This document shows positions 22,257 to 58,334 of a stretch of DNA of 64,000 bases, piece after piece (positions within the stretch are counted from its first letter, which is position 1; each line of letters begins with the position of its first letter). Under the pieces are notes generated by a model. The model did not search any database. It had not been told where the DNA came from and worked only from the letters and a program-made list of their open reading frames with translations. The stretch lies in contig CM059432.1 in assembly GCA_030390025.1 (NCBI GenBank), forward strand, positions 19,532,001 through 19,596,000, written 5' to 3'. A program made the translations under genes and the position numbers. Source of the stretch: Squalus acanthias. Lineage: Eukaryota.

Positions 22257-25200
22257 GGGCTGGATTTTGCCAGTGTGGGCGGGCTGGGGCGTGTCAGGTG
22301 GAAATCGTGTCAGGACCCCGACTCCTAAGTGAAGTGTTGAAAAAGAGGGATTTTCCCCTAATTGAGCAATTGATTTCCTGCATGTGGAAACCCCTGGCCC
22401 AATGAGTCTTTTCATACAGAAAGTCGCCTCCGATGACGTCACCAATGCTGCTGGATTTAAGGCCTGTAAGCAGCCTTGCTTCTTCTGGAGACTGCAAACG
22501 CTTTGCAAATTGTATGAAGGAGTTGATTTCCCGACAATGTCCACGATCAAGCAAAAGTGTGCACCTCGGTTTGATGAGCCCTCCCTCCAAGCTCTGGTGC
22601 ACGGAGCCAGATGTAATAAGGAGGTGCTGTTCCCTTTCTCAGGGAGAAAAAAGCCACCCCAGCAGACAAAAGCTGTATGGCTGCAAGTGGCCGAGGAGGT
22701 CAACTCCATTTCGCTGAGCCGCAGAACCTGGCTGCAATGCAGGAAGAGGTTTCATGACCTTCTCCGCACAGGAAAAGTGAGTATGACTTTCCCATCACCC
22801 TCAAAATGATCCCCATCGCCTCTCCTCACCAACACTCTGCTTTGCCAACCTCTTCCTTCACATCCCACTTGACACTTACATCCCTGCACCCTTAACAATT
22901 CCCTCTCTCTCTATGGTCACATTCACTTAACTATTCTACCATGCAGCCCTCACACTCCCTATCACTGTGATGCAATGACAACAACAAAACTTACAACATA
23001 CAGGGAGGGTTCTTTGTATCCTTCTAAGCATCTATGCTATGGATTCTCTACACTCACTCCTTCATTCTCACTCAAACTCCACTTGTGTCCGTCATTGCAG
23101 GAAAAGAGAGCCCACAATAAGAGGGAAAGAGCCATGACAGGAGGAGGGCCACCCTCAGTAGCCCAGCTCACCACCTCGGAGGAGGCGGCCCTGGAAATCG
23201 CTGGGATCGAGGATGATACCCAACTAGGGGACGGACAGATGGGCACATCGCAGCAAGCTGGTGACAGAATAGTTTGGCATCTCTCTCATTGACATTGCAT
23301 GAGTCACTGATAATGAATCTGATGCTTTAACAGATTGACTTATGATCATCTGCACTATTCAATGTGCATGTAACCTTGACCTCACATCTCTAACTCTTTC
23401 CTTTACTCCTCCACAGGACCATCGAGAACCCCTGTCCCCACTGTCCAGGAGGAAGAGCCTGAGCTTCCAGACTCCTCAGAGGAAGCTGCAACCTCTGAGG
23501 GCGCAGCGTCAGCAGAATTCAGCGCACCCAGCACCAGCGCAGACACTCACACCTCGGTGGGACCTTCGCGAGATGGAGTAGTGTTGGCACCTGGTGTATC
23601 ACAGCTCACAAGTGAGCATCAGCAGATGGTGGAGACAGGGTCAGCAGTGGAGAGTCCTCGTCGGAGGGCGCGGGACCTTGCCAGCTCGGCTCAGCTGCAT
23701 GTCGACCCTGTGCCTCCGGGTGCATCCAGAAGGAGAGCGGTGCTGGAACTCCAGGAGCAGGTGCAGGAGTCTCTGGCAGGTTTTGTCTCCAGGGTCGCTG
23801 CGAGTGTGGAGTGAATGGAGGAGTCCATCGCTAACATGAGCAGAGCCTTTGTGGAGGCATTGGCGCATGAACGCATCACCGCGGAAAGGATGGCAACCTC
23901 CTTGGAAAGGATGGCTAACTCTGTGGTAAGGCTGGCTACCGTAGAGGAGAGGATGGCTACGGTAGAGGAGAGGATGGCTACAGCCATGGAGGAGCTTAGT
24001 CACCAGGGTATGGAAAACATGGTAATTGTTCAGACTAGAATGACATCTCTTGAGGAGCGATGGTCAGCTATTGAGCATACAAACCAGACCTTCATGGTAG
24101 TCCTCTGGAGTAGGACTTCCAGTGCAGAAACGGGTCCTCATGGCCCCCCTGAAGTGCAGCAAGGTGCTGTCAAGCCACTTTCTAGCTCTGAAGTGGGCTG
24201 ACCCATGAGAGGGATGTTGGTGGCAGAGAACAAGGAAGTGGGGGCTCCTCTCCAAGCGCTCACACGACCATGCCACTGCAGAGCCCTCGGTCAGAGCCCC
24301 ACCAGAGTCCTCACCCAACTGAGATGGGCGTCTCAGCCCCTGCACAGCCGCAGGAGCAGCAGACTGTTGCCGAGCCCTCACAGGCTCGCAACCCCAGAGG
24401 ATGGCCACCAAAGGCATCGAGACAGGAGCAGCAAGAAAGTGAGCAAGGGGCCTCCACATCTGCTGAAGCCACAGGGGAAGCACCATGTAGGAGCACGCGT
24501 AAGAGGAAGATAAAGTCACAAGGGTAGTCACTTGGGTGCTGTGATGTTTTATATTTGGACCAGCCATCATTGTCATTGTGTTATAAACAGATTTGATGGC
24601 AAACCGTTGAAGTTGTGGCCTGTGTCATTTCACAAATGGGACTCTCACATTGAGGGCTTAGGGCGCCTTGCAATTGTCAGTATGGTGGTCAGAGTGATAG
24701 GAATCCGTAGGTTCCTGTCCATTGTCGATGCTCTGGTAAGAAGGTGCGAGACAAAAGTGTTTGATTGTGCAGGCTCACCAAATCTGGCCAAGATGAGTGC
24801 ATCCCTTGCATCCCGGGCAGCAATGCTGGCTCCTTCCGGCCTGTGCAGCTTCAGGTGGGTGACTAGCAGCTTGGCGCTCCTGTTGATGCTCCTGCTGTTG
24901 GTGCTGCTGTTGCTCATGGTTCTGCTGCTGCCGCGGCTGATCTTCGTCTGAATCTGATGTCCAGGAGGAAAGGAATTAAATGGTCGCCATGCTTCTGGTA
25001 TATGCCTCAGTTGAGGAAGCGCTCAGTCAAGGTGGGGAGAGGGGTTTCCCAGGAGGTCACACTGGAGATGGGTGTCAGGCTCCAAACTTCCACAACAATG
25101 AGTAGGCCTGCTAAAAGTTCGCCCAGACCTGAGACAATAAAGCTCTACCACCTGCAAATGATCATCGGTGAAAACTCCTTTGTAATGGTGGAGCTGCAGC

Positions 25201-25465
25201 TGTTAGTAAGCAATCCAATTGTGAGGCCGCCAGGATTACCATGGGTGAAATGTCTAAAAATCGGAAAGGCCTCTCAAAATGGGATAATAGAGGTAATTAA
25301 GGGGCTGTTAAGGGCCTATCCCACCTCTTGGAGGAAAGGGGGTCAGAAAACACGCATTTGGGAAAATTGCTTGGAGGCGGGATCGGGCCCACCCGCCATT
25401 TTTTGCAATTTCACCACCTCACACGCCTCCAAACCCGCCTCCTCGTGCTTGGCAAAATCGAGCCC
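22257..25465. mobile_element. PIF/Harbinger element with three-exon Myb gene and internally deleted nuclease
   Basis: TIR GGGCTGGATTTTGCCA / TGGCAAAATCGAGCCC. TSD GTT/ATT. Removing it restores GAAATGTTAACTCTGTTTCTC of a PLE-type repeat (~22225-22256 + 25466-25535). Confidence 0.9.
22537..24527 (+). pseudogene. Harbinger Myb/SANT-like protein; exons 22537-22776, 23101-23260, 23417-24527
   Basis: Exon 1 MSTIKQKCAPRF...W.QVAEEVNS..RTWLQCRKRFHDL with GTGAGT donor. Exon 2 EKRAHN.RERAMTGGGP. Splice phases 0 and 1 are consistent. Exon 3 has a coiled-coil heptad region and basic RSTRKRK end, with a TGA at 23812-23814 and a later frameshift. Confidence 0.85.
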
Positions 25466-26661
25466 ATTAACTCTGTTTCTCTCTCCACAGATGCTGCCTG
25501 ACCTGCTGAGTATTTCCAGCATTTTCTGTTTTTATTTGGGAATGATGGCTGTTCTGGCTCCATGTAGTCATCACCTACTTAAACTCCAGCACTACCCCTG
25601 CATCTATTAGGTTGTTTCCAACCCACACCTGAGCTCTTTAGGTTTCAGTGGGGTGTGTCCCTCCAGGGAGAGAGTGTGCCCTCAAATAGAAGCTCAGTAT
25701 AACCCGGTTTGGGGAGGATGAAGCTTGGTGCTCAATTGGTGTATGTGCCAGATGTCAGCTGACCAAAAATAAAAAAAACTTTTTCCGTGTAGACACACCT
25801 TTTAGAAAAGCTGAACATTCAGAACTAGAAGGAGAAATGGTGAATGCTGCCAGTAAGATTCTTCTCAGTAAACAAAAGGATGTGCCAGGTTGTCTATCTT
25901 TTATGTTCATACAACGTGAAATATTCAGCACAATGTGTCTGCCAGATATGATTGTGGAAAATAAACATGCAATGTGAGGCCTGTCTCTTATGCCTCGCAG
26001 TATTAAAGAGAACTCCGAGGTTTGGTTTGGTTTTTTTAAATCCACATTTCTTGGTAAACCATTTGTCTTTTTAAAAATACAACTATCAGCTTCACAGACC
26101 CAGCACAGTATCCCATCTGTGCACTTACAATTCAAAGGTTACAAGTCATAAACAATAAATCAATAACAATTTTGAGTACATTAACAGTTTGGCCAAACCA
26201 TCTGCTGAGCAATCCTTGGAGAGACAGTACATTGACAGATAAATTGTGTTTTTGTTATCTTATTTCCCTCCCTGTCGATCAGTCTGATCTTCCTGGTGTT
26301 TAAGAATGGCCCTTGTAAAAGAACCATGACTTACATTTAATTGGACTACTTAAAGCCAACACTATCCAATTTAAAACAAATGTCTTCGAGGGGCTTTGTG
26401 CAACTCTTCTGAGTAGTTGGATTCTCCAGAGGATAACACAAACCCAGTTAAATTTCATCAAATTCAGCAAAGATTTAGTTGTAGCAGATGGTTGTAAGTT
26501 TTCAAACGGGTAGCAAATCTGAAGCATAATGTCTGTATTCAATTAAAACAAAAATTGAAAAGAGCTCCGTCGATGGATCATTGAGTTTATCCAGTGAGTA
26601 GCTCAGCCATGCAAGGTCCCAGGTGCGGAGTTAACTGACCACGGGTGGCCATAGGAACATA

Positions 26662-28245
26662 GGCCGCGATTTCGCCATCGGAGGCGGAATTGCGGCGAGA
26701 GAGGTCATTGGCAGGTCCCGGTCCTGGCTCCAGCCGCTCTGTGAAAAGGATTTTCCCCTGATTGGGCTTGTTAAGCCCGCCCTGCGAGGTTCCCGGCCAA
26801 TTAAAAGGAAGCGGGTCTGATGATGTTATTTGATGACGCATCATTCTTAAAGGGACCATGGCCGCATTCATTTTGACAGTTGTTCTGTCAGTGTTCTGCA
26901 GCATTGAGGTGCTGCAAACACTGACAAGCACTGCACAAAGGTGCACGGCTGCACCCAGGCTCTCACATGACTCACAGCACACAGGGAGGTTCTCTTCGCT
27001 TCCAAGGGCGGAAGAGAGCTCCCCAGGACACCAACACAGCCTGGTTGCACATTGCACAGGAGGACACAAGCAGGGATGTCGTCAGGAGGACGTGGCTGCA
27101 GTGGCGCAAACCTTTCATTGATCTCGGTAGATCACGAAACGTTACTGCAAAGCCACACTCAACCTCATCCTGCTGTGTCACTCATCACATCCCCATCACA
27201 CTGCCTTCCCTACAGTACTCCTGCACATCCTTACTCACACCAACATTTTTATGCAATGTTTTATGCAATGTTCATGTAAATTTTCTGTTCATGTGTTGTC
27301 AAACATTGAAATCCAAATTTTCAAAACTTTACCTTATTGGACAGATCTGTGCTCACCTTTGGAAGTATCTTCGTGAGTTGCAGTGAATGTTGAGATATAA
27401 CTTTCGCCCCCCGCCCCCAATTTTGATGAGTGTGAAAGGAATGGCTTGGTCATTGTAGGGATGCTTTATGGTGTTGGTGTGGGGTGGTGTCAACCTGGCG
27501 CATCATGTGGCAGCCAGGGTGTACAGCATCAAGTGCAGTAAATCTGGCCATGGTGATGCCATCGATGGCCTTCTGGGCAGCAATGTTGTCGGGTGCTGAT
27601 GCCCTGTGTCCTGTGCAGCATCAGGTGATTGCGGAGAAGGCTGGTGTTTTTGTTGGTGTGCCTGGTGATGTTGGTGTTGGGGCTGATCGTGGAAAGATTC
27701 AGAGGACCAAGGTGAAATTTTTTCAAAGGCACCGATGTTGCTGGAATAGATGGCAGCTGAAGTTGAGATGACAGAAGCGATCTGTCAATGGTGAGAGAGC
27801 TTGCTCCAAGGAGGTGACAGTGGATAGAGAGTTTACTCCAAACACTTTCAAACTGCATACAGCTCAAAAGTGTCTTCCAAGTCCTGAAGGCTCCAGCTTC
27901 TGACATTGGAAAGTGACCAGCTGTGAAATGGTAGCTTTCATACAACTTTTGCAGCTGTCAACTAGTCACAGCAATGGGGAGACATAGAGAACCCAACATA
28001 CTTACCTGACGTGATCTCCAAACGACGTGAACCTCGTTAAAAAGTGGTAAAATAGAAATAGGCTGGCAAAATAGTAGTTAACAAGAGTTTAACAAGCATT
28101 TAACTATCTTAAATGCCTCCCCCGCCACTTGGTGTCGGGTCTGTACTGAAATCGCAGACCCGACATTTTGGAAACTTACATGGAGGCGGGTTTACAGTGG
28201 GATACCGACCGACTGTAAATCTTTCCGATTTTGACAGCGGACCTG
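26662..28245. mobile_element. Deleted Harbinger element (Myb exon 1 + nuclease N/C stubs)
   Basis: Left end GGCCGCGATTTCGCC. 26930-27140 matches Myb exon 1 of the 52.1-kb element, and 27430-27900 matches 55730-56170. Sits in a CR1 tail. Confidence 0.8.
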
Positions 28246-28364
28246 CCATTTAACCCCTCGAGCCTGTTCCACCATTCAATGAGATCATGGCTGATCTGCG
28301 ATCTAACTCCACATACCTGCCTTTGGCCCATATCCCTTTATACCTTTGGTTAACAAAAAGCTAT

Positions 28365-30250
28365 CATAGAATCATAGAAAGTTACAGCACGGAAGGAGGC
28401 CATTTCGGCCCATCGTGTCTGCGCCGACCAACAAAGAGCTAGCCAGCCTAATCCCACTTCCCAGCTCTTGGTCCATAGCCCTGCAGGTTAGAGCATCCCA
28501 AGTGCACATCCAAGTACTTTTTAAATGTGGTTAGGGTTCCTGCCTCTACCATCCTTTCAGGCAGTGAGTTCCAGACTTCCACAACCCTCTGGGTGTAGAA
28601 ATTTCCCCTCAAATCCCCTCTAAACCTTCCACCAATTAATTTAAAGCTGTGCCCCCTAGTTTTTGAACCCTCTGCAAAGGGAAATAGGTCCTTTCTATCC
28701 ACTTTATCTATGCCCCTCATAATTTTATACACCTCAATAAGGTCTCCCCTCAGCCTCTTCTGTTCCAAGGAAAACAGACCCAGCCTATCCAGTCTTTCCT
28801 CATAGCTAAGATTCTCTACTCCCGGCAACATCCTTGTAAATCTCCTCCGTACACTCTCTAGTGCAATCACATCTTTCCTGTAATGTGGTGACCAGAACTG
28901 CACGCAGTACTCTAGCTGAGGCCTAACTAGTGTTTTATACAGTTGAAGCATAACCCCCCCTGCTCTTGTATTCTATGCCACGGCTAATAAAGGCAAGCAT
29001 TCCGTATGCCTTCTTGACCACCTTATCTACCTGGCCTGCTACCTTCAGGAAAATGTGAACAAGCACTCCAAGGTCGCTTTGTTCCTCTACACTATTCAGT
29101 ATCCTACCATTTAATGTGTATTCCCTTTCCTTGTTAGCCCTCCCCAAATGCATTACCTCACACTTCTCCAGATTGAATTCCATTTGCCACTGTTCTGCCC
29201 ACCTGACCAATTTATTGATATCTTCCTGCAGTCTACAGCTTCCTTCTTCAGTATCAACCACACAGCCGATTTTAGTATCATCTGCAAACTTCTTAATCAT
29301 ACCCCCTATATTCAAGTCTAGATCATTGATCTATACCACAAAAAGCAAGGGACCTAGTACTGAGCCCTGCGGAACCCCACTGGAAACAGCCTTCCAGTCA
29401 CAAAAACACCCATCAACCATTACCCTCTGCTTCCTGTCTCCGAGGCAGTTTTGAATCCAACTTGACACTTTGCCCTGGATCCCATGGGCTTTTAACTTCG
29501 TGACCAGTCTGCCATGTGGAACTTTATCAAAAGCCTTGCTAAAGTCCATATACACTACATCAAACGCACTACCCTCATCTACCCTCCTTGTTACCTCCTC
29601 AAAAAATTCAATCAAGTTTGTCAGACACGACCTTCCGTAAACAAATCCGTGCTGACTATCCATGTCTTTCTAAATGAAGATTTATCCTGTCCTTCAGAAT
29701 TCTTTCCAATAATTTTCCCACCACCAAGGTTAGGCTGACTGGCCTGTAATTACTCGGTCTATCCTTTTCTCCCTTTTTAAACAAGGGTACCACATTAGCA
29801 GTCCTCCAGTCCTCCGGCTCCACACCTGAAGCCAGAGAGGATTGAAAAATGATGGTCAGGGCCTCTGCTATTTCCTCTTTTGCTTCACTTAACAGCCTGG
29901 GATACATTTCATCCGGGCCTGCGGAATTATCCACTTTTAAAACTGCTAAACCCTTTAATACTTCCTCTCTCACTATGTTTATTTCATCTAATATTTCACA
30001 CTCCTCCCCCGATAGCAATGTCTGCTTCGCCCCCCTCCTTTGTGAAAACAGACGCAAAGTATTCATTAAGAACACTACCGACGTCTCCCGCCTCCACACA
30101 CAGATTACCCTCATGATCTCGAATAGGCCCTATCCTTTCTTTAGTTATCCTCTTACTCTTAATATATTTATAAAACATCTTTGGGTTTTCCTTGATTTTA
30201 CTTGCCAAGAATTTTTTCATGCTCTCTCTTTGCTTTCCTAATATCCTTTT
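28365..30250 (-). mobile_element. 5'-truncated CR1 LINE (RT region, frameshifted) inserted in an older CR1 3' fragment
   Basis: [49 protein letters not shown]. The host fragment lies at 28252-28364 and 30251-30400. Confidence 0.92.
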
Positions 30251-30914
30251 TAATCCGATTTAAAATTAACAATTGATCTAGCATCAATTGCCATTTGCGG
30301 AAGAGAGTTCCAAACTTCTGCCACCCTCTGTGTGTAGAAGTGTTGCCTAATTTCACTCTTGAAAGGTCTGCCTCTAATTTTTAGATTCTGCCCCCTGGCC
30401 CGCAACAGGGATGGTAAAATTAGCCTCAGTACTGTACTTTGGGTTAGTGAGAGGAAAATCATCCAGGATTCCCGCTCTTGATTGCTAAGTGGCTACCCCT
30501 TCTTAAAATGCTTGTGCTCGTGCTGTCAATGGGTAAGGACGGAATTGAGCTCAGCATCCTTTGGTTGAATAGCCTACCAACACTCCCTCTCTTGCTTATG
30601 AATACTGAACGAGGTGCCAGAGCATGAGCGGTGCCCATAAAATATGTACTCCTGAAATGAGTCAACAGCTTCACGAGAAGAGGGGAGGGGAGGGCAGAAA
30701 ATCAGCACAGAAAATTTGAAAAAGAGACTAATAATGAAAACATCAATTAGAGAAATATCATTATTGAACCAAGATTGTGCAAGCACTAGCCACAAGTAAA
30801 AAAAAAATTACTAAGAGTTTATTTCTCCAGTGATTTCCCTCCAACCTCTCTCTCTCTCTCTCTAAGTCCCTTACTCTCTCTGTTGTTTCTGTGGCAATCA
30901 CATTAAACTGGTTT

Positions 30915-31012
30915 AAAAACAGAAAATGCTGGAAATACTCAGCAGGTCAGGCAGCATCTGTGGAGAGAGAAACAGAGTTAACGTTTCAGGTCGATGACCC
31001 TTGGTCAGAACT
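30915..31012 (-). mobile_element. Short PLE-type terminal repeat with hammerhead-like motif
   Basis: Minus strand AGTT-CTGACCA-AGGGTC-ATC-GACCT-GAAA-CG-TT-AACT, followed by CTGTTTCTCTCTCCACAGATGCTGCCTGACCTGCTGAG. Relatives at ~34208-34306, ~43255-43550 and ~48373-48445. Confidence 0.6.
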
Positions 31013-31324
31013 TCGTTAAACTGGTTTTATGGCCACGTCCTTTTCCTTGCTCTGCAAACACCTTTGACTTTTTAAAGCAAGCAGCTCTATTTCTCAGTCC
31101 AGGCTGAAACGCGGCAGTAAAGCTGACAGATGCAGTTCATGAATAAGTAACAGATATATCAGAAACAACAAGCCCAGATGGAAAGGCGTTGCTTTTTACT
31201 GCGCAGACATTCCCCTCCCCTCCCCATCTTGGCAACACAGGAACTATTGTGCACCGCGGTGCGTTTGATCATTTCCGTCTCTGCCCATCCCTACTAATCC
31301 CATTTTTAATGTTGGAGAAAAATG

Positions 31325-31650: not shown

Positions 31651-31738
31651 TGAAACTTGCACGTTCCTGAGAATGCAATTTTGTTAACTGCACTGAAAAC
31701 TACCCCAGCTGATCACAACACATGGAAAGTCTCGAGAT

Positions 31739-37885: not shown

Positions 37886-37914
37886 CTCATTGAGGGCCCT
37901 GCTTCACCCTGCTT

Positions 37915-38409: not shown

Positions 38410-40261
38410 GGCCTAGAAATTTGAGTAGGCCGGAACCTGCCAGAAGCAGCGTCGGCCAAGGCTAACTGCTGCCCGCAGAGAGAACGGAGGCAGAACCGGT
38501 ATGTTGTTGCTGCCTGCTAATTAACATCAGCGGTGCGGAGAATTTGTAGTGTAACGCGCTCTTACAGGAGGCTGAAGGTCGCGTCTGTGTTCCACTTGCA
38601 GTTAAGGAGAACGAGGAAGAAACAAGTGACCCTCTAGGCCATGTACAGAACAGTTGCCGTATTTGTTACAACAATTTGCCTGCCACCCGCTCACCAATCA
38701 GTGTTCCAGCATTGCATTCAGCTCTTGTGGAGAAAGCTCCCTCTTGTTTAAAGCGCATCAAAGTGACACAAGCAAAGCTCCGGAACCTATCTGTGGAAGT
38801 CATCTTTTAAATCAGCTCAGGCTCCGGCTCTCAAAATTTTGGCAGATGGATAAACGGTTCGGCAAATCATTTGCGGGGAGCCTGCCGACTGCGCTGGGGA
38901 AGTCTGTGGTTCGATCGGACTTCGGGATCGGAGGAGAAGTGGGGAGGGTATGGGCACGCAACAGGGCAAATTAATTATCGGAAGTCTGTACCTCTCGTTG
39001 CGCTGAAGAAGGCACGCAGCATTCAGTGTTGTTCAAAGGGAACAAAATTCATTTTTTTGACATTGAGCCAAGATGGCCCATTTAATGCTTTCAAGCACTC
39101 TCCCCTATCACTTTACCCACACATCTCATTCTAAAGGAATAAGCAAAGCTCTTTATTTTAAATGCTTGTTCAAATTTTCATGAAGCAGGAAGAAAAAATT
39201 ATAGGACAGGAACGATCAAATCCAGCGCTTTGTAGTTTTTGAAACCATTATCCTGTAGTCATCATTTCATTGATAGGCTGGGGTCACTTTAGTCACTGGC
39301 TTGGAGGGTCTGACAACTGAGGGCTTTCTACTATTCCGTGGCGAGGACAGAACATTTAAATCTGCTAACTTAAAACATTTTAATTCACACTTCAGATTTC
39401 AGAGATTGAAACACTGAACATCCATAGGTGATTCCTAATCCAAACCTCGAGTTTACTCTTCTAGTCACTCAGAAGTAATCACTTGCATGATTCTGCATCT
39501 TCCCATTTGTTACATTCAGTATTACAATCTCAGGCAGTGGTCATGATGTGGAGATGCCGGCGTTGGACTGGGGTGGACAAAAATGAGAAGTCGCACAACA
39601 CCAGGTTATAGTCCAACAGATTTATTTAAAATTACAAGCTTTCGGAGCTGTCGCCCCTTCCTCAGGTAGAGTTACTGTGAGCTCACAGTAACTCTACCTG
39701 AGGAAGGGGCGACAGCTCCGAAAGCTTGTAATTTTAAATAAATCTGTTGGACTATAACCTGGTGTTGTGCGACTTCTCATTTTAATCTCAGGCAGGACAG
39801 TTTCAAATAAGCAAATCACCGGGAGAAAAAATTAAACTTTGCCTACAAATCCCAAGGGTTAGCTAGCAAGACCTAAGCTTGCAATTAGTATAAACACTGC
39901 TACAAGGAGATAATAGTCTTGGCTGTCTTACATTTGTCACTTGAAGCATCCTCATGGCTGTTTACGTTGTTGAAGCACTTTTAGCGGCTACATGCACAGG
40001 CGTGCTTTGGAGAGGGCAGCAAAAGGAGCAGTGATATCCAAAATGATGAGCAGACGTCAATAGGCATTGCACGCCGATTGACATCACGCTCTGACTAATT
40101 ACAATACTTTCAGTGAGCGCAGGCATTGGCAGCGCTGCCGACCTGCCGAAAATGGCAGCCGCTGTGGGACCCGCCAGCAGCGAGCGAAAGTGTGGCAGCC
40201 GCAAATTATTCCCCCAAAACAGGCCTTAACGGCCAGCGCAAACACTTCGAATTTCTAGGCC
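38410..40261. mobile_element. Non-autonomous Harbinger-type element
   Basis: Perfect 12-bp TIR GGCCTAGAAATT / AATTTCTAGGCC. TSD CAT at 38407-38409 and 40262-40264. Right subterminus resembles 18590-18790. Confidence 0.8.
39538..39783. mobile_element. Non-coding Penelope-derived palindromic insertion with two hammerhead motifs
   Basis: TSD AATCTCAGGCAG at 39526-39537 and 39784-39795. Perfect 204-bp palindrome at 39580-39783. Hammerhead motifs at 39695-39730 (+) and 39633-39668 (-). Confidence 0.92.
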
Positions 40262-40269
40262 CATATTTC

Positions 40270-40780
40270 TGAGGAACTGGCCTCCATCCTTCCATCTTTT
40301 GCAAAGTGCTGTGTTACATTGGATCACCTCAGAATGAAAGCATCATGTGTTTATCCCAGGGATCATGCGCTGCTGTGTATTATTTTCTTCTGGTGGTTGC
40401 ATACCATTTGCATATTGATGGAGTAATAACCCTTCTTATATAATCAGTGATGGCCTCTATCTTAGGGCAGGCAGCCATTTGGAAAAAATTGTTGATGCCA
40501 CTACAGTCGCTGCTGCTGTTGGCTGCTGAAGTTATATCGCAGGGTGCATCGTGGTACAGGGCTTTAGTTGTCTTCTTTACGGAGCTGTAGAGGATAAAAT
40601 GGCTGCCTCCTGAGATGGTCTGGAAGGCCTCTGTAGCATAAAGGTTGTGGACAGTAATGACATTGCTACCCGCGGCAATACATGTCAACGCTTGACCGCA
40701 GGTCTTGGTGGATCAGTTGTTCCAGGTCAGCACGAGTCTGCTTGTCCACTGCTCCTCCACCGTGCCAGCTGACTTTGCCG
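40270..40780 (-). pseudogene. Highly degraded Harbinger (HARBI1-like) nuclease, N-terminal/central part
   Basis: DLEQLIHQDL, VITVHNLYATEAFQTISG, SSVKKTTKALY, FFQMAACPKIEAITDY, then (frameshifted) PG...HDAFILR, in the order expected for a HARBI1-family protein. Confidence 0.6.
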
Positions 40781-42485: not shown

Positions 42486-42743
42486 GGGCTAGATTTTGAT
42501 ACTGGGGCGGGTTGGGGTCGTGTCATCTGCATTTTGTGTTATCCACCCGACTGCAATTGGATGTGGGAGATTGATGCAATTTTCACTTAATTGGGCAATT
42601 GAGTTCCAGCATGTGGGAACCCATGAACCAATTAGTGGTTTCAGTCTGAAAGTCGCCTTTGATGATGTCATCATTGCTGCTGCATTGCAGGTAAGAGACT
42701 GCCTGGCTTTTGCTGTGAAAGGACCTGGATGCAAAATGAGCAG

Positions 42744-42777
<34 letters not shown>

Positions 42778-43231
42778 TGTATCCAGGTCCTCTCACAGCA
42801 AAGGCCAGACAGTCTGTGAAGACCTTCAATGCAGTAGCATCAGAGGTGACTTTCAGACCTAATACTACTACTACCTTCATCACATCTCCGTTGTAATAGT
42901 GGACCTGCAGCTGATAGTCAGCTATCCAAATGTGCTCCCGCCAGGTTTCACAATCGTGGTTCAGAACAGGCATGCTTCATGTAGATCAAGGGTTAAAATC
43001 ACAAAGGCCTTTCAAAATGGCATTATAGAGCCAATTTAGTGCTTGTTAAGGGCCTTAACAGCCTATCCCGTCTCTTAAAGGCGGGACGGAGTCGGGACCA
43101 GCAGACACGATTTAATGAAAATTGCGTGGAGGCGGGATGGAGGTGGACTTGTGCCCGCCCGCCAGTTTTCGCAATTTTAACCCCCCACACGCCTCCAAAC
43201 CCGCCTCCACGGGTCAATGAAAATCCAGCCC
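42486..43231. mobile_element. Harbinger MITE related to the 22257-25465 element
   Basis: TIR GGGCTAGATTTT / AAAATCCAGCCC. TSD AAT/AAC. Subtermini resemble 22257-22470 and 25260-25465. Confidence 0.8.
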
Positions 43232-47795: not shown

Positions 47796-50700
47796 CTACA
47801 TGAGGGAAGTTACAGAGAGATGAAGAGCAAAAGAATAAAGGTTTATTTGCCTTCCTGACAAACGCTTCCCTCACATATAGTTGAGTCCTCTGACTGTTCT
47901 CTCTCATGTGACAGCCCCAGTTCTTTACAATGAATCTGCTCTGTCATGTAATGTCACTTTTTCTTGTCAGTTTCCAACGGCTGACATTTTTTTTTTAAAT
48001 ACATAAACATTTCTGGTATTGTCAGTCAAGAATCAAACGGTCACAGCTGCAAAAGGTGACTAACTTATATATAATAGCCATTTAATTCCAATGTGCCTTA
48101 GCTTGAATGTTTCTCCAAAGAAATCTACAACAGATATTGGAGTGGAACCCAGTTGTCACTTCATGCTCGTTACTGCGGTTTCTGACAAACTGAATGGAAC
48201 ATTAACAAGAATCAACCGCCTTCCCCTTCTAAGCAGCAGTCATGATTTCTTCTTGCTCAAGAGGGAACTTTCTCTATACCTCTGCTTTCTACCAATTTAT
48301 TTGAATTTTTACAATGCAACCAGGTCACACAAGCCTCCCTTTGGTTACCTACCAAGCCAAGCTTGTTGATAGCGACCTGAAACGTTAACTCTGTTTCTCT
48401 CTCCACAGATACTGCCTGACCTGCTGAGTATTTCCCGTTTTTATTTGTTGATGTACTCATCAGCATTAACCATTCTGAGTTTGGCTATGTTTATGCATTA
48501 GAATAATGACCTGGTTGCATTGTGTCCGTCTACGGAATCTGGCCTTTTAATGGGTGGACAAAGTTATCTTGAAAGCTTGTTTATTGCCACCAAAAACGTT
48601 AAGGAAAAAAAAATCTTGCTCCAACTTCCAACATGGATATTGGGCACAGAGATCACAAGAGGAACAGGAAGTTAAAACAAGCTTTTAAACTTTAAAAATA
48701 GAAATAAAGACTGGAATAGACAGAAAAGAGTATGACATTTGAGAAAAGGGTATAGTTGAAGTTACGGTACAAATGGACAGAGAGAAAATGAAGGAATGTA
48801 ACAGCAAAACAAGCATGGTAAAGTGTTAACTATTTTATGTTTAATGTAGTAGTTTAGGGTTAATATCAGGAGAGTGGTATCAAGAAAGCTATTCCTAATT
48901 TAAGTAACTTTATTACTGTAATATTTTTGAGCATTACAGCACAAACTCAAACAAATTAAATGGGTTGGCCCAGGAAACCGCAGGTTCCTTGAACCTGACA
49001 ACAAATTAATTTGAAGATACAAAATACACGCTCAAAACCAAATGCTGTTGTAATAATAAACAATACCCTTTTGTTTTATATATTCCCCATATTTAACCTC
49101 ACTATTTCTTTTTCCTCATCCGGAATCGATGGAAAAATAGCATGCTGTGTGCCCAGAACTTCCCGCAATGCACTCCCAGCAAGCATCATTCCATGCTGGG
49201 AACACCAGATTCCATAATCAATTGTTAATATTTAATTTCCATTTCATCTTCATCCTATCTAATCGAATATTTCCATTCTGACTCTTAAAAAAATGAAATT
49301 TAAAGCGCTCTCCTCACTTGGGTTCTTCCCACAGTCCATCTAGGGGTGGGAGCAACTCCTAAAAACGAGATCGTTGTGTGGCTGAAACTAACTCTGAAGT
49401 TCAGGTTCGCAACCAATGGCCAGGCTGCTGGCAGAGGAGCTCATTATTATGGACCCTCAGAACGCTAGACACATGAATTGATCTGTGCTGTAGTAAGCAT
49501 TAAAGGGCCAAATTTCGATCATCCTAGCTAACTGTCAGGGACGCCATCAGGTGAAACGTTAAAATGAGACCTTGTCCGCATGTTCTTGTGGCTTAGGTGG
49601 ATGCTGAAGATTCCATGAAGCTATTCGAAGAAGAGGAGGGCGTTCTCCTTTTGTCCTCGCACTCAAAGCTCCTCCATTAGAAATAATTCGCACACAGAGC
49701 ATCAATGCAAGAGTTCCCTCAGGCAGCGCTTGAGGCAAGCTTCCACATTGCGTTGATTTATTTATGACCATCTCCACTGTGAATGAGGGCCTACAATTGG
49801 CTATGCTTGGTTTCACTGGGACCATCAGGAAGAAGTCAAGTCCGATTCACTAAGAAATAAATAGCAATAAGTAACAGGGGGATGTCAGGCGATGCTGCAT
49901 CTGCTGCACAGTGGCAAACAAAACATGAGGAACACTAATTACTATGAAGTAAAGTTGCTTCAGTCGCAACTTGGAGGGGAAATTTAATCCTGAGGTCAGA
50001 GTAAACACTGCCAATGTGAGATGATTTTTAATGGTGGCAATTGCTATTAATAGGTTTCTGATTTTTTTTTTACTCATTGTCAAGACTCCGGAAGTTGGTA
50101 GTTTTGTTTGTGCTACCATGAAAGCTGATGCGTAAGCTACAGCTACAGGCAGATTTATTTTTGCGTGTTAGTTATGTGTTTATTCAGGTGAAAGAAGTCA
50201 CTTCTGATTAACGGAACATTTTCCCAATGTCGGCATCAAGCACTCCCAGATCATGTACGACAGAATTAGGTGCAAAGTAAAGTTCCCTTTACACTGCCCT
50301 AAGAATGTATTTGTGTCACAACTGAGGAAAAACACGCCATACGTACAACTTTTTTCCATTTCCTACATCAGCTGTCCTGTAGACACTCTGAGCGAGAGTG
50401 CCAATTTACAACATTTCGATAGCACGCCTTGCGCAAGAAGACATCTGAAAGTGCTTTGCATTCAGGAGAGAAAAACAAGGGAGGCCAAGCAGGAGAGAAA
50501 AAAAGAAATGGAAAATAGAGAGGATTAGGGTTGAGGGTTGAGGGGTGGGGGGTAACTGAAGGCATGACCACAGGAAAAGGGTTTTAAAGAAGTTTTCGAA
50601 AACAGGGAGGAAGGTGACATGCAGAGGGACCTAGTGAGGGGAACTTCAGATGACAAGAGGGTAGTGGCTGAACAAGCAGCAACCGATGGTGGAGGGAAGG

Positions 50701-51029
50701 TAGCAGGAAATAAGGAGTGGTCCAGTGTTGGATCAGCAGAATGTGTGCATGGGCATTCAAGAGTGAAGGAGAACCCAAAGGTAGAATGGGGAGGTTAGAA
50801 AGCGGGGATGAGAATTTTGAAGTCAATTTGAGGCATGAAACCCAATGGAGCTCAATGAATTGTAACTTGTGCAGGGTTACGTAGAAATGACAACACAGAA
50901 ACAAGCCAGTAAGCCCAATCAGTCTGCAATGGTGTTTCTCCATATATGAGCAATTGACCTAATCCTACGTGTCCACCTTGCTCCCACCTCCCTTTATTCC
51001 CGTTTTCTTCAACGACCTATCTCACCTAT

Positions 51030-51280
51030 CCTTAATAATTAAAATTGGCAGCCCTGTCTTCAGCTGCCTAGGCCCTAAGCTTAGGAATTCCCTCCCTCAA
51101 CCTCTCCGCCTCTCTTCCTCTCTCTCCTCTCCACAAAACTTCTCTCTTTGACCAAGCTTTTGGTCACCTGTTGTAATATCACCTTATGTGGCTCGGCGTC
51201 AGATTGATAATCACCTGTGTAGTGCCTTGGGATGATTTACGACATTAAAGGCACGATATGAATGCAAGTTGTTGTTGTTC
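51030..51280 (+). mobile_element. L2-type LINE 3' end
   Basis: TTCAGCTGCCTAGGCCCTAAGCTTAGGAATTCCCTCCC...AAAGGCACGATATGAATGCAAGTTGTTGTTG; the tail resembles the Deu-SINE tail. Confidence 0.65.
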
Positions 51281-52380
51281 TGTTACTGACTATGGCAGTG
51301 GATTGCACAGCCTCACAACCCTCTGTGTAAATGTTTAGTAATTTCATCTTTCATTAAAAATTCCAAGATTTTCCTTATCACAGATGTTAAACTAACTACC
51401 CTGTAATTTCTGGGTTAGGTCTATCACCTTTTTTTGAAAATTGGGACTACCTTGGCCAGTCCTCCAGTATGCATCCACTCTCAATAGAACCCTGAAATAT
51501 AATTACTAGGGCCACCACTATTTCCCTCAGTATCCTTGGATGTACCTCATCAGAACCCTATACGTTGTCCTCCTTTAACTTAACTAACTTCTCCAATACT
51601 TTCCTTTGATTTGAAGAAGGGAGGCTGGCGAGGAAGGCATTAAGAAGTTGGGCAATGAAGTGATGAAGGCATGCATTAGGATTTCAGTGGTGGGAAAGGA
51701 GTGAGGACGAGCTAAGAAATGCTGGTAAAGAGCAGATGTGGAGGAGGAAGTTCAGCTCAGGTTCCATCATCCTTTGTTAATCGAATAATAAGTAAGGATT
51801 GATTCAGAAGCATTATTTGACTTCAACTTTCAATCAATGGTTTATATTTAAGGCAGGATTTAATATCACTTAACAGTTCATCTCATTTTCTTTCAAATAG
51901 TAATTGGAGTATAGGAAATAAAAGAAAACAAATGGTTTCGTACATTTTCGCTTACTGATCTAATCCATAATAACTTTTTCTTTAATTAAAATCCACCATG
52001 GAGTTAAAGTATATCATAATTCCATACCTTCTGGCTCAGCCTGAGATGGAAGAAGTTAATGAAGTCAAGTGCAGACATATGTAGATGTTGGCTGAAGACA
52101 AAGGCCGGAATTTTCTGTACCTGGACGGGTCGGGGGCGGGCGGTTGGCGTGGCAGGTCGCGACCCCGTTGCTGCTTCCATCCCACTGCAGAAATCGACTT
52201 TGCATCAATGGAGCCTACTAAGCCTGCCGAGCGCGATACCCGGACCAATTAAATGGTGCAGGTCTGATGATGTCATCCGTGACGCGTTTTCAGCCGGTAT
52301 ATTTAAGGGAGCCACGGCCACATTGCATTTGGAGGTTCATTTCACACTGGAGGTTTTCCTTGCACCAAACAGTTGGAGAG

Positions 52381-55300
52381 ATGGCTGCACAGAGGTGCAG
52401 GGCTGCACCCAGGTTCTCCCATGACTCCCTCCATATGCTTGTGGAGGGAGTCAGAGCATGCAGGGAGGTCCTCTTGTGAAGGAATAAGCCATATTCAGAA
52501 AAATATACCATTCTATGAAAGAATTCTGGCCTTTGTAACATGACAAACTGGGCTTGAAAATCTAAAAACCTAACAATGGAGAAGCTGTAAACAGCATACA
52601 GGCTATTGAGATAAGATAAGTTGTTGACACTGAATCAATAACCTTATTGAAACAGGAGGTTGGAAGCTCCTGAAGTCTGAAGCTTTGGAAAGAACACAAT
52701 GGTACACCCTGTTAAGGTGTCTTAAAATACACTTTGGAAAGAAACACAGAAAATTAAGAAACATATGCCTTCGTAAAAATGACGTCAAATAAAACACAGG
52801 AGACATGATTCTGTGTTGCAACCAGCTGAGGTAACTAAGAAGACAATGGTGCACCCGGTTGAGGTGTTTTTAATTTACACGTCGCAAAAAGACACAAACA
52901 GAAGACCTTGGTAAGAATGACATCAAATAGATGCATATGCTGTCACACCGTTTTTATGATAAGCTTTGAACACCTAAAGGTAGACACACAATTCTTAATG
53001 CTACCAGCTGAACTGACTGTAAGAATAGCAGGGGTCAGCAGAAAAATGACTAGAGATAATTAGCTTACATCAGCAGAAAACTTCAAAGGACATACCACTG
53101 AAAAAGGATATAAATATTGAACTTTCAAATGGGATGATAGTCTCACTGTAAAGGGGCAAAGTGATTCTCGGCTTCAGAGGCAAGCTCTGTAAGTCTACAA
53201 CTCTTTATCTCGGGGATCAAGGTACTATACTGTATTTGATTTTGGTGGATATCCTGGAATAAGACTAAGAACTGTAAAAATGTAACGAAGTTAAGATTTG
53301 AGAATAAGGATCTCTGATAATAGAATTGTAAGATTTCTGTTTTTGGAACTGTTAATATTGCGATTGAATCACCAACTGTAATTACATGTCGGTTCTTTAA
53401 TAAATCTATATATTTTTAGAATTATCTCACATAATACTTCTGTATCAAACTCGCGAACTCAATCTCTGTACGCTCTTTGGTGAGGAGTTGCAGAATTCTG
53501 GGGGAGTTTTCCGGACCCTCATAATATCCGGAACGTTACAGTCTAGCTAAACTTATTAAAAGTGCTATCTGGAGGACGGTAACATCTTCAGGTTGTTCCT
53601 TTCCTTTAGGGAAAGATAGTCTGGACCTTTAGACCCAATTAAGCGTCTTTAGGATTCGGCTACCTCAAACTTTAGTTGAAAGTGAACGTCTGAGGAATAC
53701 GCCTGATCCGGGGTAGCCCTAAAGGGGCTAGGACTAATAATTATCCCTTCACTCTTCCCTTCCGATGGGCGGAAGAGACCTCCCCAGGAGACAAAAAGAG
53801 CCTGGTTCCAAATTGCAGAGGAGGTCAACAGCAGGGATGTGTTCAGGAGGACCTGGCTGCAGTGCCGCAAATGTTTCAATGATCTCATTAGATCTGGAAT
53901 GGTGAGTACAAAACCACACTCAACTTCATCCTGCTGTGCCTCTCATCACATCCCCATCACTCTGCCTTCCCAACCCTACCCCTGCACATCCTTACTCACA
54001 CCAACTTACCTTGCACGTCCACCCATCCCTCTCTATCTACATTATCACATCCCCATCTTACTAACCACCCCTCACACTCAGCCTCTTCCTAATGCAATCA
54101 TACCAACTAACAACATGCAAGGAGCCCACTTAACATTGCCACCCTAATCCGTCATAGTCTCCCTATAAAGATGTAACCCATCCATTCCTTACACTCATTG
54201 CATTACTCTCACTCAACCTTCTCTTCTTTCCCTCCTTGCAGGAGAAGAGAGCGCATGGTAAGAGGGAGAGGGAGAGAACTGGAGGTGGGCCTCCATCATT
54301 TCCGACCCTCAACAGCAGAGGAGGCTGTGTTGGAAGTCTTGAGAGTAGCTGAGCAGTTGGAGGTGGGAGACGGAGAGAGGGGAACATTTCAGCAACCTGG
54401 TGACAGAATTACATATCATACAGCTACATGGCATACATTAATCAGTCACTCATACTGATGTCGTCATCCACTGAATGGTCATCATGTGTATAATGGTATC
54501 TGTACCCATTCTTCATATAGCATATCTAACTCATCTCTTTACTCTCCCTCAGGTCCATCAAGAGCACCCCCCCCCCCCCACCCCACTGTAGAGGAGGAAG
54601 AGAAGACGATTCCTCAGAGGAGCCTCCAGCCTCTGAGGGCACAACGTCACCAGACATGAGCACACCCAGCACCAGCCAGGGACGCACACCTCGGTGAGTC
54701 CAATGCGAGATAGAGTAGTGTTGTCACCAGGTTCGTCACAAGTCCCAAGTGAGCAAGAGCAGATTGTAGAGACAGGGACAGCAGTGGAGATTACTCACCG
54801 GAGGGCGCAGGATGCTCCCAGCTCTGTTCAGCTGCATGCAGATGCTGAGCCTCGGGGACCATCCAGAAAGAGGGCGATCCAGGAGGTGCAGCAAGAAGTG
54901 CAGGAGGCTCTGACAGGTTTTGCAAGAGCAATGTCTGCAAATGTGCAAAGAATGGTGGCGTCCATCTCCAACATGAGCACCACCGTGTCGCAGGTGATGG
55001 CGACTGTAGGCTCTTCCATGGAAAGGATGGCCGCCTACATGGAGCAGCTACTGCGCCACTCACAGGAGCACATGGTCTTGATGGAGAATAGATGGCTATC
55101 TATGGAGCACAGATGGCAGGCCTCCTGTCTAGGAGGGATGTCAGCGTAGACGTGGGTCCTCATGGCCCCACTGATGTGCAACAAGGTGCTCTCCAGCTCC
55201 TTGCTAGCAGGGAAGTGTGGGTGGCCCATGAGAGGATGATGGTGAGAGGGGAGAGGGAAGTGGGGGCTCCTCTCAAAGTGCTTACACTTCTCCCCCATTG

Positions 55301-55541
55301 CCCCTTCTCAGACAGAGCCCCACATGCCTCCTCGGACAGTGATGGCTGAGTCTGCCTCTGCACAGTCGCAGGAGGAGCAGACTTTGTCGGGGCCATCTCA
55401 GGCTCCAAACCCAGAGGACATCCACCAAGAGTGTCTAAGCAGTCACAGCAGGGAAGTGAGCCGGCTGCTTCTACCTCTGCTGAAGCTATAGGGGTAGCAC
55501 CTCATAGAAGCACGCGGAAGAGAAAGATGGCACACAAGTAG
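52381..55541 (+). pseudogene. Harbinger Myb/SANT-like protein; exon 1 52381-53901 (split by LTR), exon 2 54242-54399, exon 3 54553-55541
   Basis: Removing the LTR restores MAAQRCRAAPRFSHDSL...REVLFPSDGRKRPPQETKRAWFQIAEEVNSRDVFRRTWLQCRKCFNDLIRSG. Intron positions match the 22.5-kb copy. Ends RSTRKRKMAHK*. Several frameshifts. Confidence 0.85.
52475..53751 (+). mobile_element. Solo LTR (1277 bp)
   Basis: TGTGAAGGAATAA...TTATCCCTTCA. TSD CTCT at 52471-52474 and 53752-53755. TATA-like TATAAATA near 53110 and AATAAA at 53399. Confidence 0.88.
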
Positions 55542-58334
55542 ATTCACAAGGGTAGTCACTTGGGTGTTTTAGTCAGTGTAAATGGCAAGTTTCCGTTAAT
55601 GTATTGTCAACCATCAAAATCTTTATTTTCACCACTTTGCCATCTTGGACACTTTTCTGTGCACCTTTAGAAGTGGCTTAGGGAGCTGCAGTGAATGGTG
55701 AGACATAACGGAACCTCCAGCAATGGTGGTCAGTATGAAAGGAATGGCTTGGTCATTGTAGGGATCCTTTATGGTGTTGCTGTGGGGTGGTGCCAACCTG
55801 GCGCAGCATGTGGCAGCCATATGGCTGTACTGCATAAAGTTAAGTAAATCTGGACATGATGAGGTCATCCCTGGCCTCCCGGCAGCAATGTGCTCGGGTT
55901 CTGATGCCCTCTGTCCTGTGCAGCATCAGGTGATTGCGAATAAGGTTGGTGGTGTTGTTGTTGTTGGTGCTGCTGGTGTTGGGGCTGATTGTGGTCAGAC
56001 TCTGAGGACCAAGATGAGAGAGTATAACCGGCACCCGTGCCGATGGAATAGATGGCAGCTCAAGTAGAGTTGACAGAAGCCATCTGTCAATGGTGAGAGA
56101 GGTTCTTCCAATGAGGTGACACTGGATGGAGACTTTGCTGAAACACTTGCAGCCTGCAGAAAGCTCAATCTGTGCAGGCAATGTAGTCAGCAACAGCTTC
56201 TGCCTGAGGAAAGTGATCAGCTGTGAGTTTGGAGCTTTTATAGTACATTTGATGCTGTCAAGCAATCAATGGTCACTCAACTCCCGCCTCAGGTTGAGCT
56301 GCGTGAACCCCGTGACCATGCAGGGAAATTTGAAAGGTGGGGGGAAAAAGGCTCTTAAGTGTCTGAGAACAAGCTGATAATGATTTCAATTAGGTCACTC
56401 GCCTCTGCTGGTCAAGTCGCTGCCACACCGGCAAACGCGCCCGAGGGAACGGCGCGTGGGGGCAGGATAACAGCGGCTTCCCGACCCGCTCCGACTTTTT
56501 TCAGATTTCCCACCCAACCCACCTCCGATCGCGCCAGCACGGACCCCAAAAAATTCCAGCCGAAGAGTTTGACTTCAGTGTGGCTGCCAATGAGGGGGAA
56601 CCTTTTGCTTATCCAGGACTTACATCTGAATGGATTTGATGAGGGAAGCAGAGAGATAGAGCTGGGTGTCATCAGCGTACATAAGGAAGTTGACCCCATG
56701 TTTCTGTACGATAGCTGCAAGAAAGACGAGCAGGATTGGTCCAAGGATGTAGTCCTGAACAAATTGGGGGCAATTTTGTGTTGTGGTGCTGTGGGCTGTC
56801 CCTGTCTACTGCAAACTAAACTGAGACGACAAAAATTAATTTCTCAGAATACCATCCTTTAAATATAACAACCAATCTCCTGTGTACTTGCTGCCAGTGA
56901 GGAGTCTAATCCACCGGCCTGACATATCGGACAACAGGGGCAGTGCAAAAGTGAGCTTGGTTTCCCGACAGAAGTCCATACTTGGCAAATCAGATGAACA
57001 ACTTACAGACTGGTAAGAAGTAGGTCTTGGAAATAACCTATAAATATAACTGTTACATAATATAAACAGGTTCATGCTTAAATAGCAAAAGGATTCTACT
57101 TTCTCCGCTAATAGTGTCTGTGCCAGGCTATTGTCTTTTTTAACTGTGTCACTAGATTTTATACTCAACCCTAAATAATGCCTGCCTCCCTTGTGTCGCT
57201 TGTCATTTTTTAAAAAGATAGAAAAGGTCATTTGTTATAAAATTCAAAAATATTGCAATTGTACAACAGGAATTGTCAATCAGTATCTGGAAGAGAAAGG
57301 TAAGTTAACGGTTGGGTGTGACTCCCAGGGAATTTTAAAAACAATGGTACAAGAGCTGTCATCGTAACACAAGTTGGATAAAGTTCACTTTATTTGAAAA
57401 TAAATGATTTGCTAGTTTAGCGTGGCACAGTTAAACAAGAGTTTCAGTGAATGTAATAAAAGCATTAATTCTATGTAACCGATACAACTATTGCAAATGC
57501 AATATTAAAGCATAAATTGCCAACAACAGTGGTGAAGTCAACTAATGTAGAATTTGGACTTGCCTGTTATCAAGCTCCAGGAAGCTTATTTGGTTTGAAT
57601 TCTATGAGGGTGCACTTAGCCTTGTAATGACAAATAAAATTAATACCACATCTGAAGATCATGGGGAAGTGCAGGAAACTGTGCGCAGTGCTTGCCAGAC
57701 TGGCACAAGTACTGTCTTCGGGCATTCCTGACTGTCAGCAATTGAAACACAGATTAGCACCACATCATGCTACCATCTGGTGGTGATGAGATAAGTCTTT
57801 TTCATCCGTGCGTGTTTATCAATTAAAAATTTCCGGCATTAATGAATTCATCAACAGATAGTGTCCACTCTGGAGTTAACGCCGATTTCAAAATCTTCTG
57901 ACCATAAAAGGAGTTAATTTTCTGACTTCAGAATTTGGCAGTGGGTGGAATCGGCTGCCTGTTATGCATCCCGCCCTTTTTTCTTTTCCATTGTGCAACG
58001 TGTGATTTACTCCCCCCACCAAAGTTGAAACTACCAGCACATATTTGAAACAGAGAGCCTTGCATGCTGGAGGTGCAAATCAGGCACAGACTGAGCATGA
58101 GTTTCTGACCATTTCAATGAATTGTGTGTAGCGCATGTCCTGGTATGTGAGGCTCCTGCCCAAACTATGAAGACAGAAAATTACTCCTTAAATGTAACGC
58201 ACAAAGCACAAGACTAGAAGGGACTAACTAATTCAGTGGAAAACAAGGCGAGGTGATCTTATCATTTCAAACCACATCTCTTGCCATTTTAATCATCACA
58301 CTGGCCTATCACCTAGCCTGGCTCCTAGCCCGAA

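What the first reader, a model, noticed from the sequence alone, without database searches (positions are those of the whole stretch)
22257..56561. Lineage of Harbingers that keeps the spliced Myb gene but has lost the nuclease core at a shared junction
Seen: elements at 22257-25465 and 52103-56561 retain a three-exon Myb/SANT-like gene with matching intron positions; 26662-28245 retains exon 1. On the minus strand all three have only an acidic/Gln-His-rich stub joined to what looks like the nuclease C-terminal helix (AARDARDALILARF at ~24780-24825; REARDDLIMSRFT at ~55845-55885). The junction context GCTGCACAGG...CATTGCTGCC is the same in all three (~24820-24850, ~27580-27620, ~55880-55925). 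Established: autonomous Harbingers need both a nuclease and a Myb-like partner. Inference: the deletion predates the divergence of these copies, so a Myb-only element was amplifying by borrowing nuclease in trans while supplying its own DNA-binding subunit.
Basis: partly seen in the sequence, partly recalled or inferred. Interest (0 to 1): 0.72.

Follow-up and report, generated by a model that had tools for sequence, protein, structure and literature searches.

The report
Shark Harbingers missing their cutting enzyme
Three decayed copies of a two-gene jumping element in a shark-like genome have lost the middle of their cutting-enzyme gene at nearly the same spot while keeping all or part of the DNA-binding gene; they likely spread by borrowing the enzyme, probably after two separate deletions, much like a case described in a nematode in 2026.

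Summary
Observation largely confirmed. E1 (22257-25465), E2 (26662-~28245) and E3 (52103-56561) are PIF/Harbinger elements with a Myb/SANT gene (E1 and E3 share intron positions) and no nuclease core. The 'stub' is the nuclease N-terminus: a shark HARBI1-like protein is the top match for all three stubs.

The junctions are not identical: the spacer is 14 nt in E1 and 24 nt in E2/E3, and stub and helix are out of frame. The 24-nt deletion is old and amplified, seen in a Pristiophorus gene model and in contigs of three organism labels.

A single origin for all three is doubtful. A nuclease-bearing relative sits much closer to E2/E3 than E1 does, and the stubs diverged like coding DNA. Myb shows dN/dS about 0.4 between E1 and E3, but this may predate the deletions; E2/E3 give about 0.9. 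All three Myb genes are broken, and E2-like contigs point to an abundant form lacking Myb exons 2-3, so keeping Myb seems unnecessary.

Myb(MADF)-only Harbingers are published for Caenorhabditis inopinata; nine searches found no shark case. Three look-ups of the scan's notes on this genome showed no such finding.

The parts
22257..25465 (.). E1: non-autonomous Harbinger, 3,209 bp, 16-bp TIRs (15 of 16 identical), flanks GTT/ATT (3-bp TSD with one change); sits inside a high-copy short repeat
   Evidence: repeat loose ends at 25465-25537
22537..24526 (+). E1 Myb/SANT-like gene: exons 22537-22776, 23101-23260, 23417-24526; premature TGA at 23812; frame break near 24194; basic RSTRKRK end shared with E3
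   Evidence: a 1-nt insertion at 24194/24195 in other copies
24826..24990 (-). E1 nuclease N-terminal stub (about 55 codons, TAA at codon 5), ending in the 14-nt junction spacer 24826-24839
24777..24825 (-). E1 nuclease C-terminal helix (IAARDARDALILARF), out of frame with the stub
26662..28245 (.). E2: decayed relative of E3; Myb exon 1 and start of intron 1 (about 26925-27244) joined to the 3' flank (27257 on); right TIR not recognisable
   Evidence: loose ends at 27244 and 27257
27537..27742 (-). E2 nuclease stub, 24-nt spacer (27586-27609) and C-terminal helix
   Evidence: bridged without gaps by record 22 of run X17
52103..56561 (.). E3: non-autonomous Harbinger, TIRs 13 of 16 identical, flanks AAA/GAA
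52372..55541 (+). E3 Myb/SANT-like gene with E1's intron positions; split by an insertion in exon 1, frameshifts in exons 2-3
52477..53751 (.). 1,275-bp insertion in E3 exon 1 with TGAAGG..CCTTCA ends and a 6-bp duplication (one mismatch); solo-LTR-like by shape only
   Evidence: related sequence at 10740-11930
55843..56044 (-). E3 nuclease stub, 24-nt spacer (55891-55914) and C-terminal helix (1-nt loss inside the helix)

Best explanation
These are non-autonomous PIF/Harbinger elements that lack the nuclease core, likely through two separate deletions at nearly the same place in sister subfamilies (E1 type; E2/E3 type), and each deleted form was likely multiplied by nuclease and Myb protein supplied in trans, with its own Myb gene riding along as a probable passenger. 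Shown: the anatomy, the nuclease origin of both stubs, the two spacer lengths, the broken Myb genes, and very high summed contig depth. Inferred: separate origins, mobilisation in trans, and a size advantage from losing about 1 kb. Speculative: short repeats between the gene's two ends steered the breakpoints.
For: Stub identity: P0156 (Pristiophorus japonicus HARBI1-like) is the top local match of 312 proteins for all three stubs, at its residues 2-37 (scores 103/107/134; next 77/46/52), and ends in a matching helix. Separate origins, four lines. (i) Spacer 14 vs 24 nt. (ii) The read-through tail of nuclease-bearing P0149 aligns to the 3' flank of E3 (score 128, 22 of 28 residues) and E2 (89) but not E1 (20). 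(iii) On the stub side, nuclease-bearing P0250 matches E3 at 17, E2 at 16 and E1 at 13 of 25 residues (E1-E3 13 of 25); P0156 matches them at 15, 14 and 12 of 24 (E1-E3 13 of 24). (iv) E1/E3 stub DNA identity is 114 of 163 (70%), like the Myb exons (688 of 968, 71%, p=0.78) and above the non-coding flanks (287 of 501, 57%, p=0.004; shuffled about 49%). Passenger Myb: E2/E3 exon 1 omega 0.93 on 60 codons; 47 contigs in run X2 end at 27257 with a loose end that reads as intron 1 joined to the Myb stop region (compared with E3); the window also holds a non-coding MITE with E1-like ends. Amplification: summed depth in X2 is 8.8e4-9.8e5 over E1 and 1.2e5-1.4e6 over E2, against 11.6-14.6 over the unique spacer, with no dip over the junction bins (not a copy number). 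Smaller PIF/Harbinger elements excise and insert more often in yeast (PMC10288884, passages).
Against: Both breakpoints coincide within about 10 nt, which one origin explains most simply. The stub's own selection test is not significant by likelihood (omega 0.47, p=0.12, 37 codons; the counting method gave 0.39, CI 0.14-0.99, p=0.026). Stub vs intron identity is not significant (p=0.08), and the motif was picked because it is conserved. The helix alone does not separate the groups (7-11 of 15 in all pairs). The nuclease-bearing relatives are automatic gene models; P0149 is visibly chimeric at its N-terminus and P0156/P0250 skip part of the protein, so their pieces may come from different copies. 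Myb omega between E1 and E3 is clearly below 1 (0.41, p=5e-9). No listed contig explicitly bridges E1's 14-nt junction (32 pieces shown, 268,320 not).
Confidence: 0.55

Rival explanations
1. One reading: one ancient deletion founded a long-lived Myb-only lineage that diversified into E1, E2 and E3 types; its Myb stayed under selection because the element needed its own DNA-binding subunit while borrowing the nuclease; E1 later lost 10 more bases.
For: Same left end of the deletion in all three by alignment. E1/E3 Myb omega 0.38 (CI 0.28-0.50), exon 1 0.21; wrong-frame controls 1.31-1.35, introns 0.63-1.06. A 1-nt insertion at E1's frame break is carried by about 40% of depth in two runs and 89-100% in the two RNA-labelled runs, so other copies are open there. 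Three contigs join an E1-like helix to an E2-like stub over 22-24-nt spacers (table 5c, my count). Precedent in C. inopinata: 14 of 19 MADF-only loci intact (PMC13668399).
Against: Nuclease-bearing P0149 and P0250 lie closer to E2/E3 than E1 does; stubs are conserved like coding DNA. E2/E3 omega about 0.9. An exon-2/3-less form looks abundant. By general knowledge a protein made in the cytoplasm gives its own copy no private advantage.
Confidence: 0.2
2. One deletion arose once and was then moved between already diverged subfamilies by template switching or gene conversion during gap repair, so the junction is shared but the arms have separate histories.
For: The bases next to the spacer are about 90% alike between E1 and E3 while the flanks are near saturation. 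Silent divergence is uneven along the Myb gene (pS 0.68-0.70 in exons 1-2, 0.30-0.46 in exon 3). An earlier scan note reports mosaic Harbinger copies in this genome (e1-7790202, not checked).
Against: The left motif is equally conserved in nuclease-bearing P0250 and P0156, so conversion is not needed to explain it. The unevenness is not significant at fourfold sites (15 of 31 vs 22 of 76, p=0.07). The 10-nt spacer difference still needs a second event.
Confidence: 0.2
3. The junction is not a deletion scar: the stub is a short functional peptide gene or chance similarity.
For: The stubs are more conserved than their flanks.
Against: Both halves match the two ends of full-size nucleases; they are out of frame; E1 has a stop at codon 5 and E2/E3 lack the start codon; E2/E3 stub omega 1.08.
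Confidence: 0.04

Closest known systems
Harbinger-1M_cIno / Harbinger-2M_cIno of Caenorhabditis inopinata (PMC13668399; parts 1-4 of 7 read: abstract, introduction, results, discussion)
   Same: TIR-bounded PIF/Harbinger derivatives that keep the MADF/Myb gene, lack the DDE gene, expanded beside shorter non-coding derivatives, and are thought to be moved in trans.
   Different: There 14 of 19 MADF loci are intact and a new insertion was observed; here all three copies are broken and no activity is shown. Here both nuclease termini remain as a recognisable scar, two subfamilies are cut at nearly the same place, and the host is a shark-like vertebrate.
Autonomous two-gene vertebrate Harbingers (as described in PMC9179366; part 1 of 6 and passages read)
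   Same: TIRs, 3-bp flanks, Myb/SANT gene and nuclease gene on opposite strands; stubs match shark HARBI1-like transposases.
   Different: The DDE core is absent. That paper found no single-ORF Harbinger in teleosts, none at all in elephant shark, and asked for other cartilaginous fish to be examined.
mPing and other Tourist-like MITEs (PMC10288884, passages read)
   Same: Internal-deletion derivatives moved by ORF1 and transposase in trans; shorter elements move better.
   Different: MITEs keep no gene; E1 and E3 keep about 2 kb of Myb gene and are 3.2 kb (E3 without its insertion).

Membership tests
PIF/Harbinger | Terminal inverted repeats | tested here: met
   E1 15 of 16, E3 13 of 16; E2 lacks a recognisable right TIR
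PIF/Harbinger | 3-bp target site duplication (often TWA) | tested here: inconclusive
   E1 GTT/ATT and E3 AAA/GAA agree at 2 of 3 bases and are not TWA
PIF/Harbinger | Myb/SANT-like gene | tested here: met
   PF13873 above cut-off in E1 and E3 exon 1; E2 exon 1 by similarity
PIF/Harbinger | Descent from a HARBI1-type DDE transposase gene on the opposite strand | tested here: met
   Both termini match shark HARBI1-like proteins P0156, P0149, P0250, P0263
Autonomous Harbinger | Intact DDE transposase | tested here: not met
   No core hit from 312 proteins in E1-E3
MADF/Myb-only Harbinger (Harbinger-1M_cIno type) | DDE gene absent, Myb gene sequence retained between TIRs | tested here: met
   E1 and E3
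MADF/Myb-only Harbinger (Harbinger-1M_cIno type) | Intact Myb ORF in deleted copies | tested here: inconclusive
   Not met in the three window copies. Other copies are open at E1's frame break; the status of E1's stop at 23812 was not among the 40 of 761 rows shown
MADF/Myb-only Harbinger (Harbinger-1M_cIno type) | Expansion of the deleted form | tested here: met
   Depth 4-5 orders above the unique spacer with no dip at the junction bins; 24-nt-type junction in contigs of 3 of 4 runs laid and in P0149. Qualitative only; firmer for E2/E3 than for E1
MADF/Myb-only Harbinger (Harbinger-1M_cIno type) | A cognate intact DDE source in the same genome | not testable with these tools
   No genome held; cognate core-bearing gene models exist in P. 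japonicus but look decayed
MADF/Myb-only Harbinger (Harbinger-1M_cIno type) | Expression, splicing and current mobility | tested here: inconclusive
   None of the 15 joints shown (427 hidden) is at the predicted splice sites; RNA labels are guesses

The most novel reading that the evidence does not exclude
Sharks carry an old, very abundant, multi-species radiation of Myb-only Harbingers whose Myb gene stayed under purifying selection after the nuclease was lost, whether from one deletion or from repeated deletions at one hot spot. That would be a stable split of a two-gene transposon into a DNA-binding specialist and a rare enzyme donor in a vertebrate.
Probability: 0.25. Interest if true: 0.65.

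Novelty: new member of a known kind. Interest (0 to 1): 0.36.

Why it matters
Myb-only Harbingers were reported as new for the superfamily only in 2026, in one nematode. A shark-like genome with two amplified subfamilies cut at almost the same place extends that to vertebrates. It also makes an open question testable: does a partial, protein-coding non-autonomous element keep its gene by selection or by inertia? High copy number and matched nuclease-bearing relatives would allow branch-wise dN/dS before and after the deletion. If the Myb is only a passenger, as I think more likely, this is an ordinary deletion-derivative series of value for shark repeat annotation.

Tried and rejected
No whole genome is held, so no family consensus, copy count or DNA-level breakpoint map could be made.

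A 25-nt pattern from the E2/E3 3' flank found 0 matches in metagenome contigs. An 18-nt one found 5 viral contigs; none resembled the elements (one 30-nt hit elsewhere in the window), so I treat them as chance.

Sequence look-ups in the scan's notes found nothing, nor did a word look-up.

No RNA holder is on record. In the two runs guessed to be RNA, no joint at 22776/23101 or 23260/23417 is among the 15 shown, and two listed contigs run unspliced into or across intron 2. This says nothing firm on expression.

Of 13 majority differences inside E1's Myb frame taken from the 40 rows shown, 11 are amino-acid changing; the rows are a selected few and were not used as a selection test.

Likelihood fits for exon 2 (E1/E3) and exon 1b (E1/E2) ran to saturation and their omega values were ignored.

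The Atlas search returned only Myb/SANT clusters.

An in-frame mini-protein from stub plus helix was rejected. No fold or complex job was run.

Literature: 'Myb-Harbinger' 0 papers; Harbinger+Myb-like+non-autonomous+shark 0; coelacanth version 0; searches listed nothing on shark Myb-only elements (listings only, apart from the four papers opened). The Pleurodeles paper (PMC5741667, passages) reports expanded Myb-bearing Harbingers but in those passages does not say they lack the nuclease. The coelacanth paper is not held. Repbase, Dfam and subscription journals were not searchable, and supplements were not opened, so a named Myb-only vertebrate family there cannot be excluded.
Full report
Setting. 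No genome is held. The nearest named proteins are HARBI1-like nucleases of sharks and rays, mostly Pristiophorus japonicus, so the host is shark-like; the species is not established. I name the elements E1 (22257-25465), E2 (26662-~28245) and E3 (52103-56561). E1 and E3 are 66-73% alike in their main blocks, E2 and E3 78-85%.

Anatomy. E1 has 16-bp TIRs (15 identical) and flanks GTT/ATT; E3 has 13 of 16 and AAA/GAA; E2 has no clean right end. Exon 1 of E1 and E3 hits Myb_DNA-bind_5 above the cut-off. All three Myb genes are broken: E1 by a stop at 23812 and a frame break near 24194; E3 by a 1,275-bp insertion and frameshifts; E2 by loss of exons 2-3 and part of exon 1.

The scar. The junction motif occurs three times in the window and never in 100 shuffles; the spacer is 14 nt in E1 and 24 nt in E2 and E3. 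The acidic/Gln-His stub is the nuclease N-terminus: of 312 collected proteins (311 HARBI1-like hits plus near relatives from four searches), P0156 is the best match for all three stubs at its first 37 residues, and its C-terminus matches the helix. P0149, P0250 and P0263, of the same nuclease group, end in the same helix. Against relatives of about 400 residues, roughly 1 kb including the whole DDE core is missing (inferred). Stub and helix are out of frame.

Amplification. Four runs were laid on 22240-28260. In X2, whose contigs match the unique spacer with 0 differences, summed depth is 11.6-14.6 on the spacer, 8.8e4-9.8e5 on E1 and 1.2e5-1.4e6 on E2. This is no copy number, but both are high-copy families, and the junction bins show no dip. 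No loose end at either junction is among the 24 shown (6,143 hidden). One X17 contig bridges E2's junction without gaps; three contigs (X1, X2, X17) carry 22-24-nt spacer variants by my count. The first 42 residues of gene model P0149 are the opposite-strand reading of a 24-nt junction (30 of 45 identical to E2, 17 of 21 to E3), so that deletion also exists in P. japonicus. An X1 contig (another organism label, 66 differences in 1,248) runs from the spacer 73 nt into E2, so that insertion is shared. No listed contig explicitly bridges E1's own junction.

One deletion or two. For one: both ends coincide within 10 nt. For two: P0149 keeps its core, and its read-through tail matches the 3' flank of E3 (22 of 28) and E2 but not E1; P0250 and P0156 lean the same way on the stub side by smaller margins. 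E1/E3 stub DNA is 70% identical, like the Myb exons (71%) and above the flanks (57%, p=0.004), as expected if the nuclease still worked while they diverged. Against this reading: the stub's omega is 0.47 but not significantly below 1 by likelihood (p=0.12), the comparison with introns gives p=0.08, the helix is uninformative, and the gene models may be chimeric. I put two deletions at 0.55, one lineage at 0.2, and a junction spread by recombination at 0.2. The peptide ends of P0250 and E2 both read ASA just before the helix, which hints at a short repeat at the E2/E3 breakpoint; this is inferred from protein only.

Selection on Myb. E1/E3 over 335 codons: omega 0.38 (CI 0.28-0.50) by counting, 0.41 by likelihood (p=5e-9); exon 1 is strongest, the 5' part of exon 3 is not significant; wrong-frame and intron controls are near 1. 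So Myb worked for much of the E1-E3 divergence, but if the deletions came later this says nothing about Myb-only elements. E2/E3, which share a deletion, give 0.93 on 60 codons (wide interval; E2 is a further-decayed form, so this is a weak test). Other copies carry an extra base at E1's frame break (about 40% of depth in X1 and X2), so open copies may exist. On the other side, 47 X2 contigs end at 27257 in a sequence that reads as intron 1 joined to the Myb stop region, which suggests an abundant form without exons 2-3. The window also holds a MITE with E1-like ends and an unrelated element that lost the other half of its nuclease. Together these look like an ordinary deletion series.

Mechanism. 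Shown: structure, scar, abundance. From the literature: both proteins are needed and act on the element's ends (PMC9179366, PMC13668399), and smaller elements move more often (PMC10288884). Inferred: deleted copies kept their ends and were moved by proteins from nuclease-bearing copies; any Myb they made would be shared, not private.

Prior art. PMC13668399 describes expanded MADF-only Harbingers in C. inopinata and calls the configuration unreported before. My nine searches found no shark or other vertebrate case; Repbase, Dfam and closed journals were not searched. The scan's notes on this genome cover target preference, a near-intact two-gene copy and mosaic copies, not this (8 of 12 and 8 of 21 fitting notes shown).

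Verdict. A real feature and a new member of a recently described kind. The boldest part, one long-lived lineage selected to supply its own Myb, is unproven and more likely wrong than right. Interest 0.36.

Noticed in passing
window ~16340-18830: Another Harbinger of a different family (E0): Myb remnant on + (16703-17212); nuclease on - whose first 31 codons (18295-18203) join directly to the second half of the DDE domain (residues ~32-212 of P0001 missing). A separate deletion that also starts just after the N-terminal stub.
   Followed up: partly
window 42486-43231: 746-bp MITE with TIRs (13 of 16) and ends 67-74% like E1's; no coding remnant found; lies next to the same short repeat that E1 sits in.
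   Followed up: partly
window 150-1499: TIR-bounded 1.35-kb element holding a piece like Myb exon 3 (812-1009) and a repeat insertion at about 444-565.
   Followed up: no
window 40282-40757 (-): Decayed HARBI1-like nuclease fragment with stops and frameshifts.
   Followed up: no
window 52477-53751: Solo-LTR-like insertion in E3; related sequence at 10740-11930 and 12018-13071 on the other strand.
   Followed up: partly
   Followed up: partly
window 39580-39783: Perfect 102-nt inverted repeat with no spacer.
   Followed up: no
window 13971-14540: Tandem array of 95-nt units, inner copies 97-98% alike.
   Followed up: no
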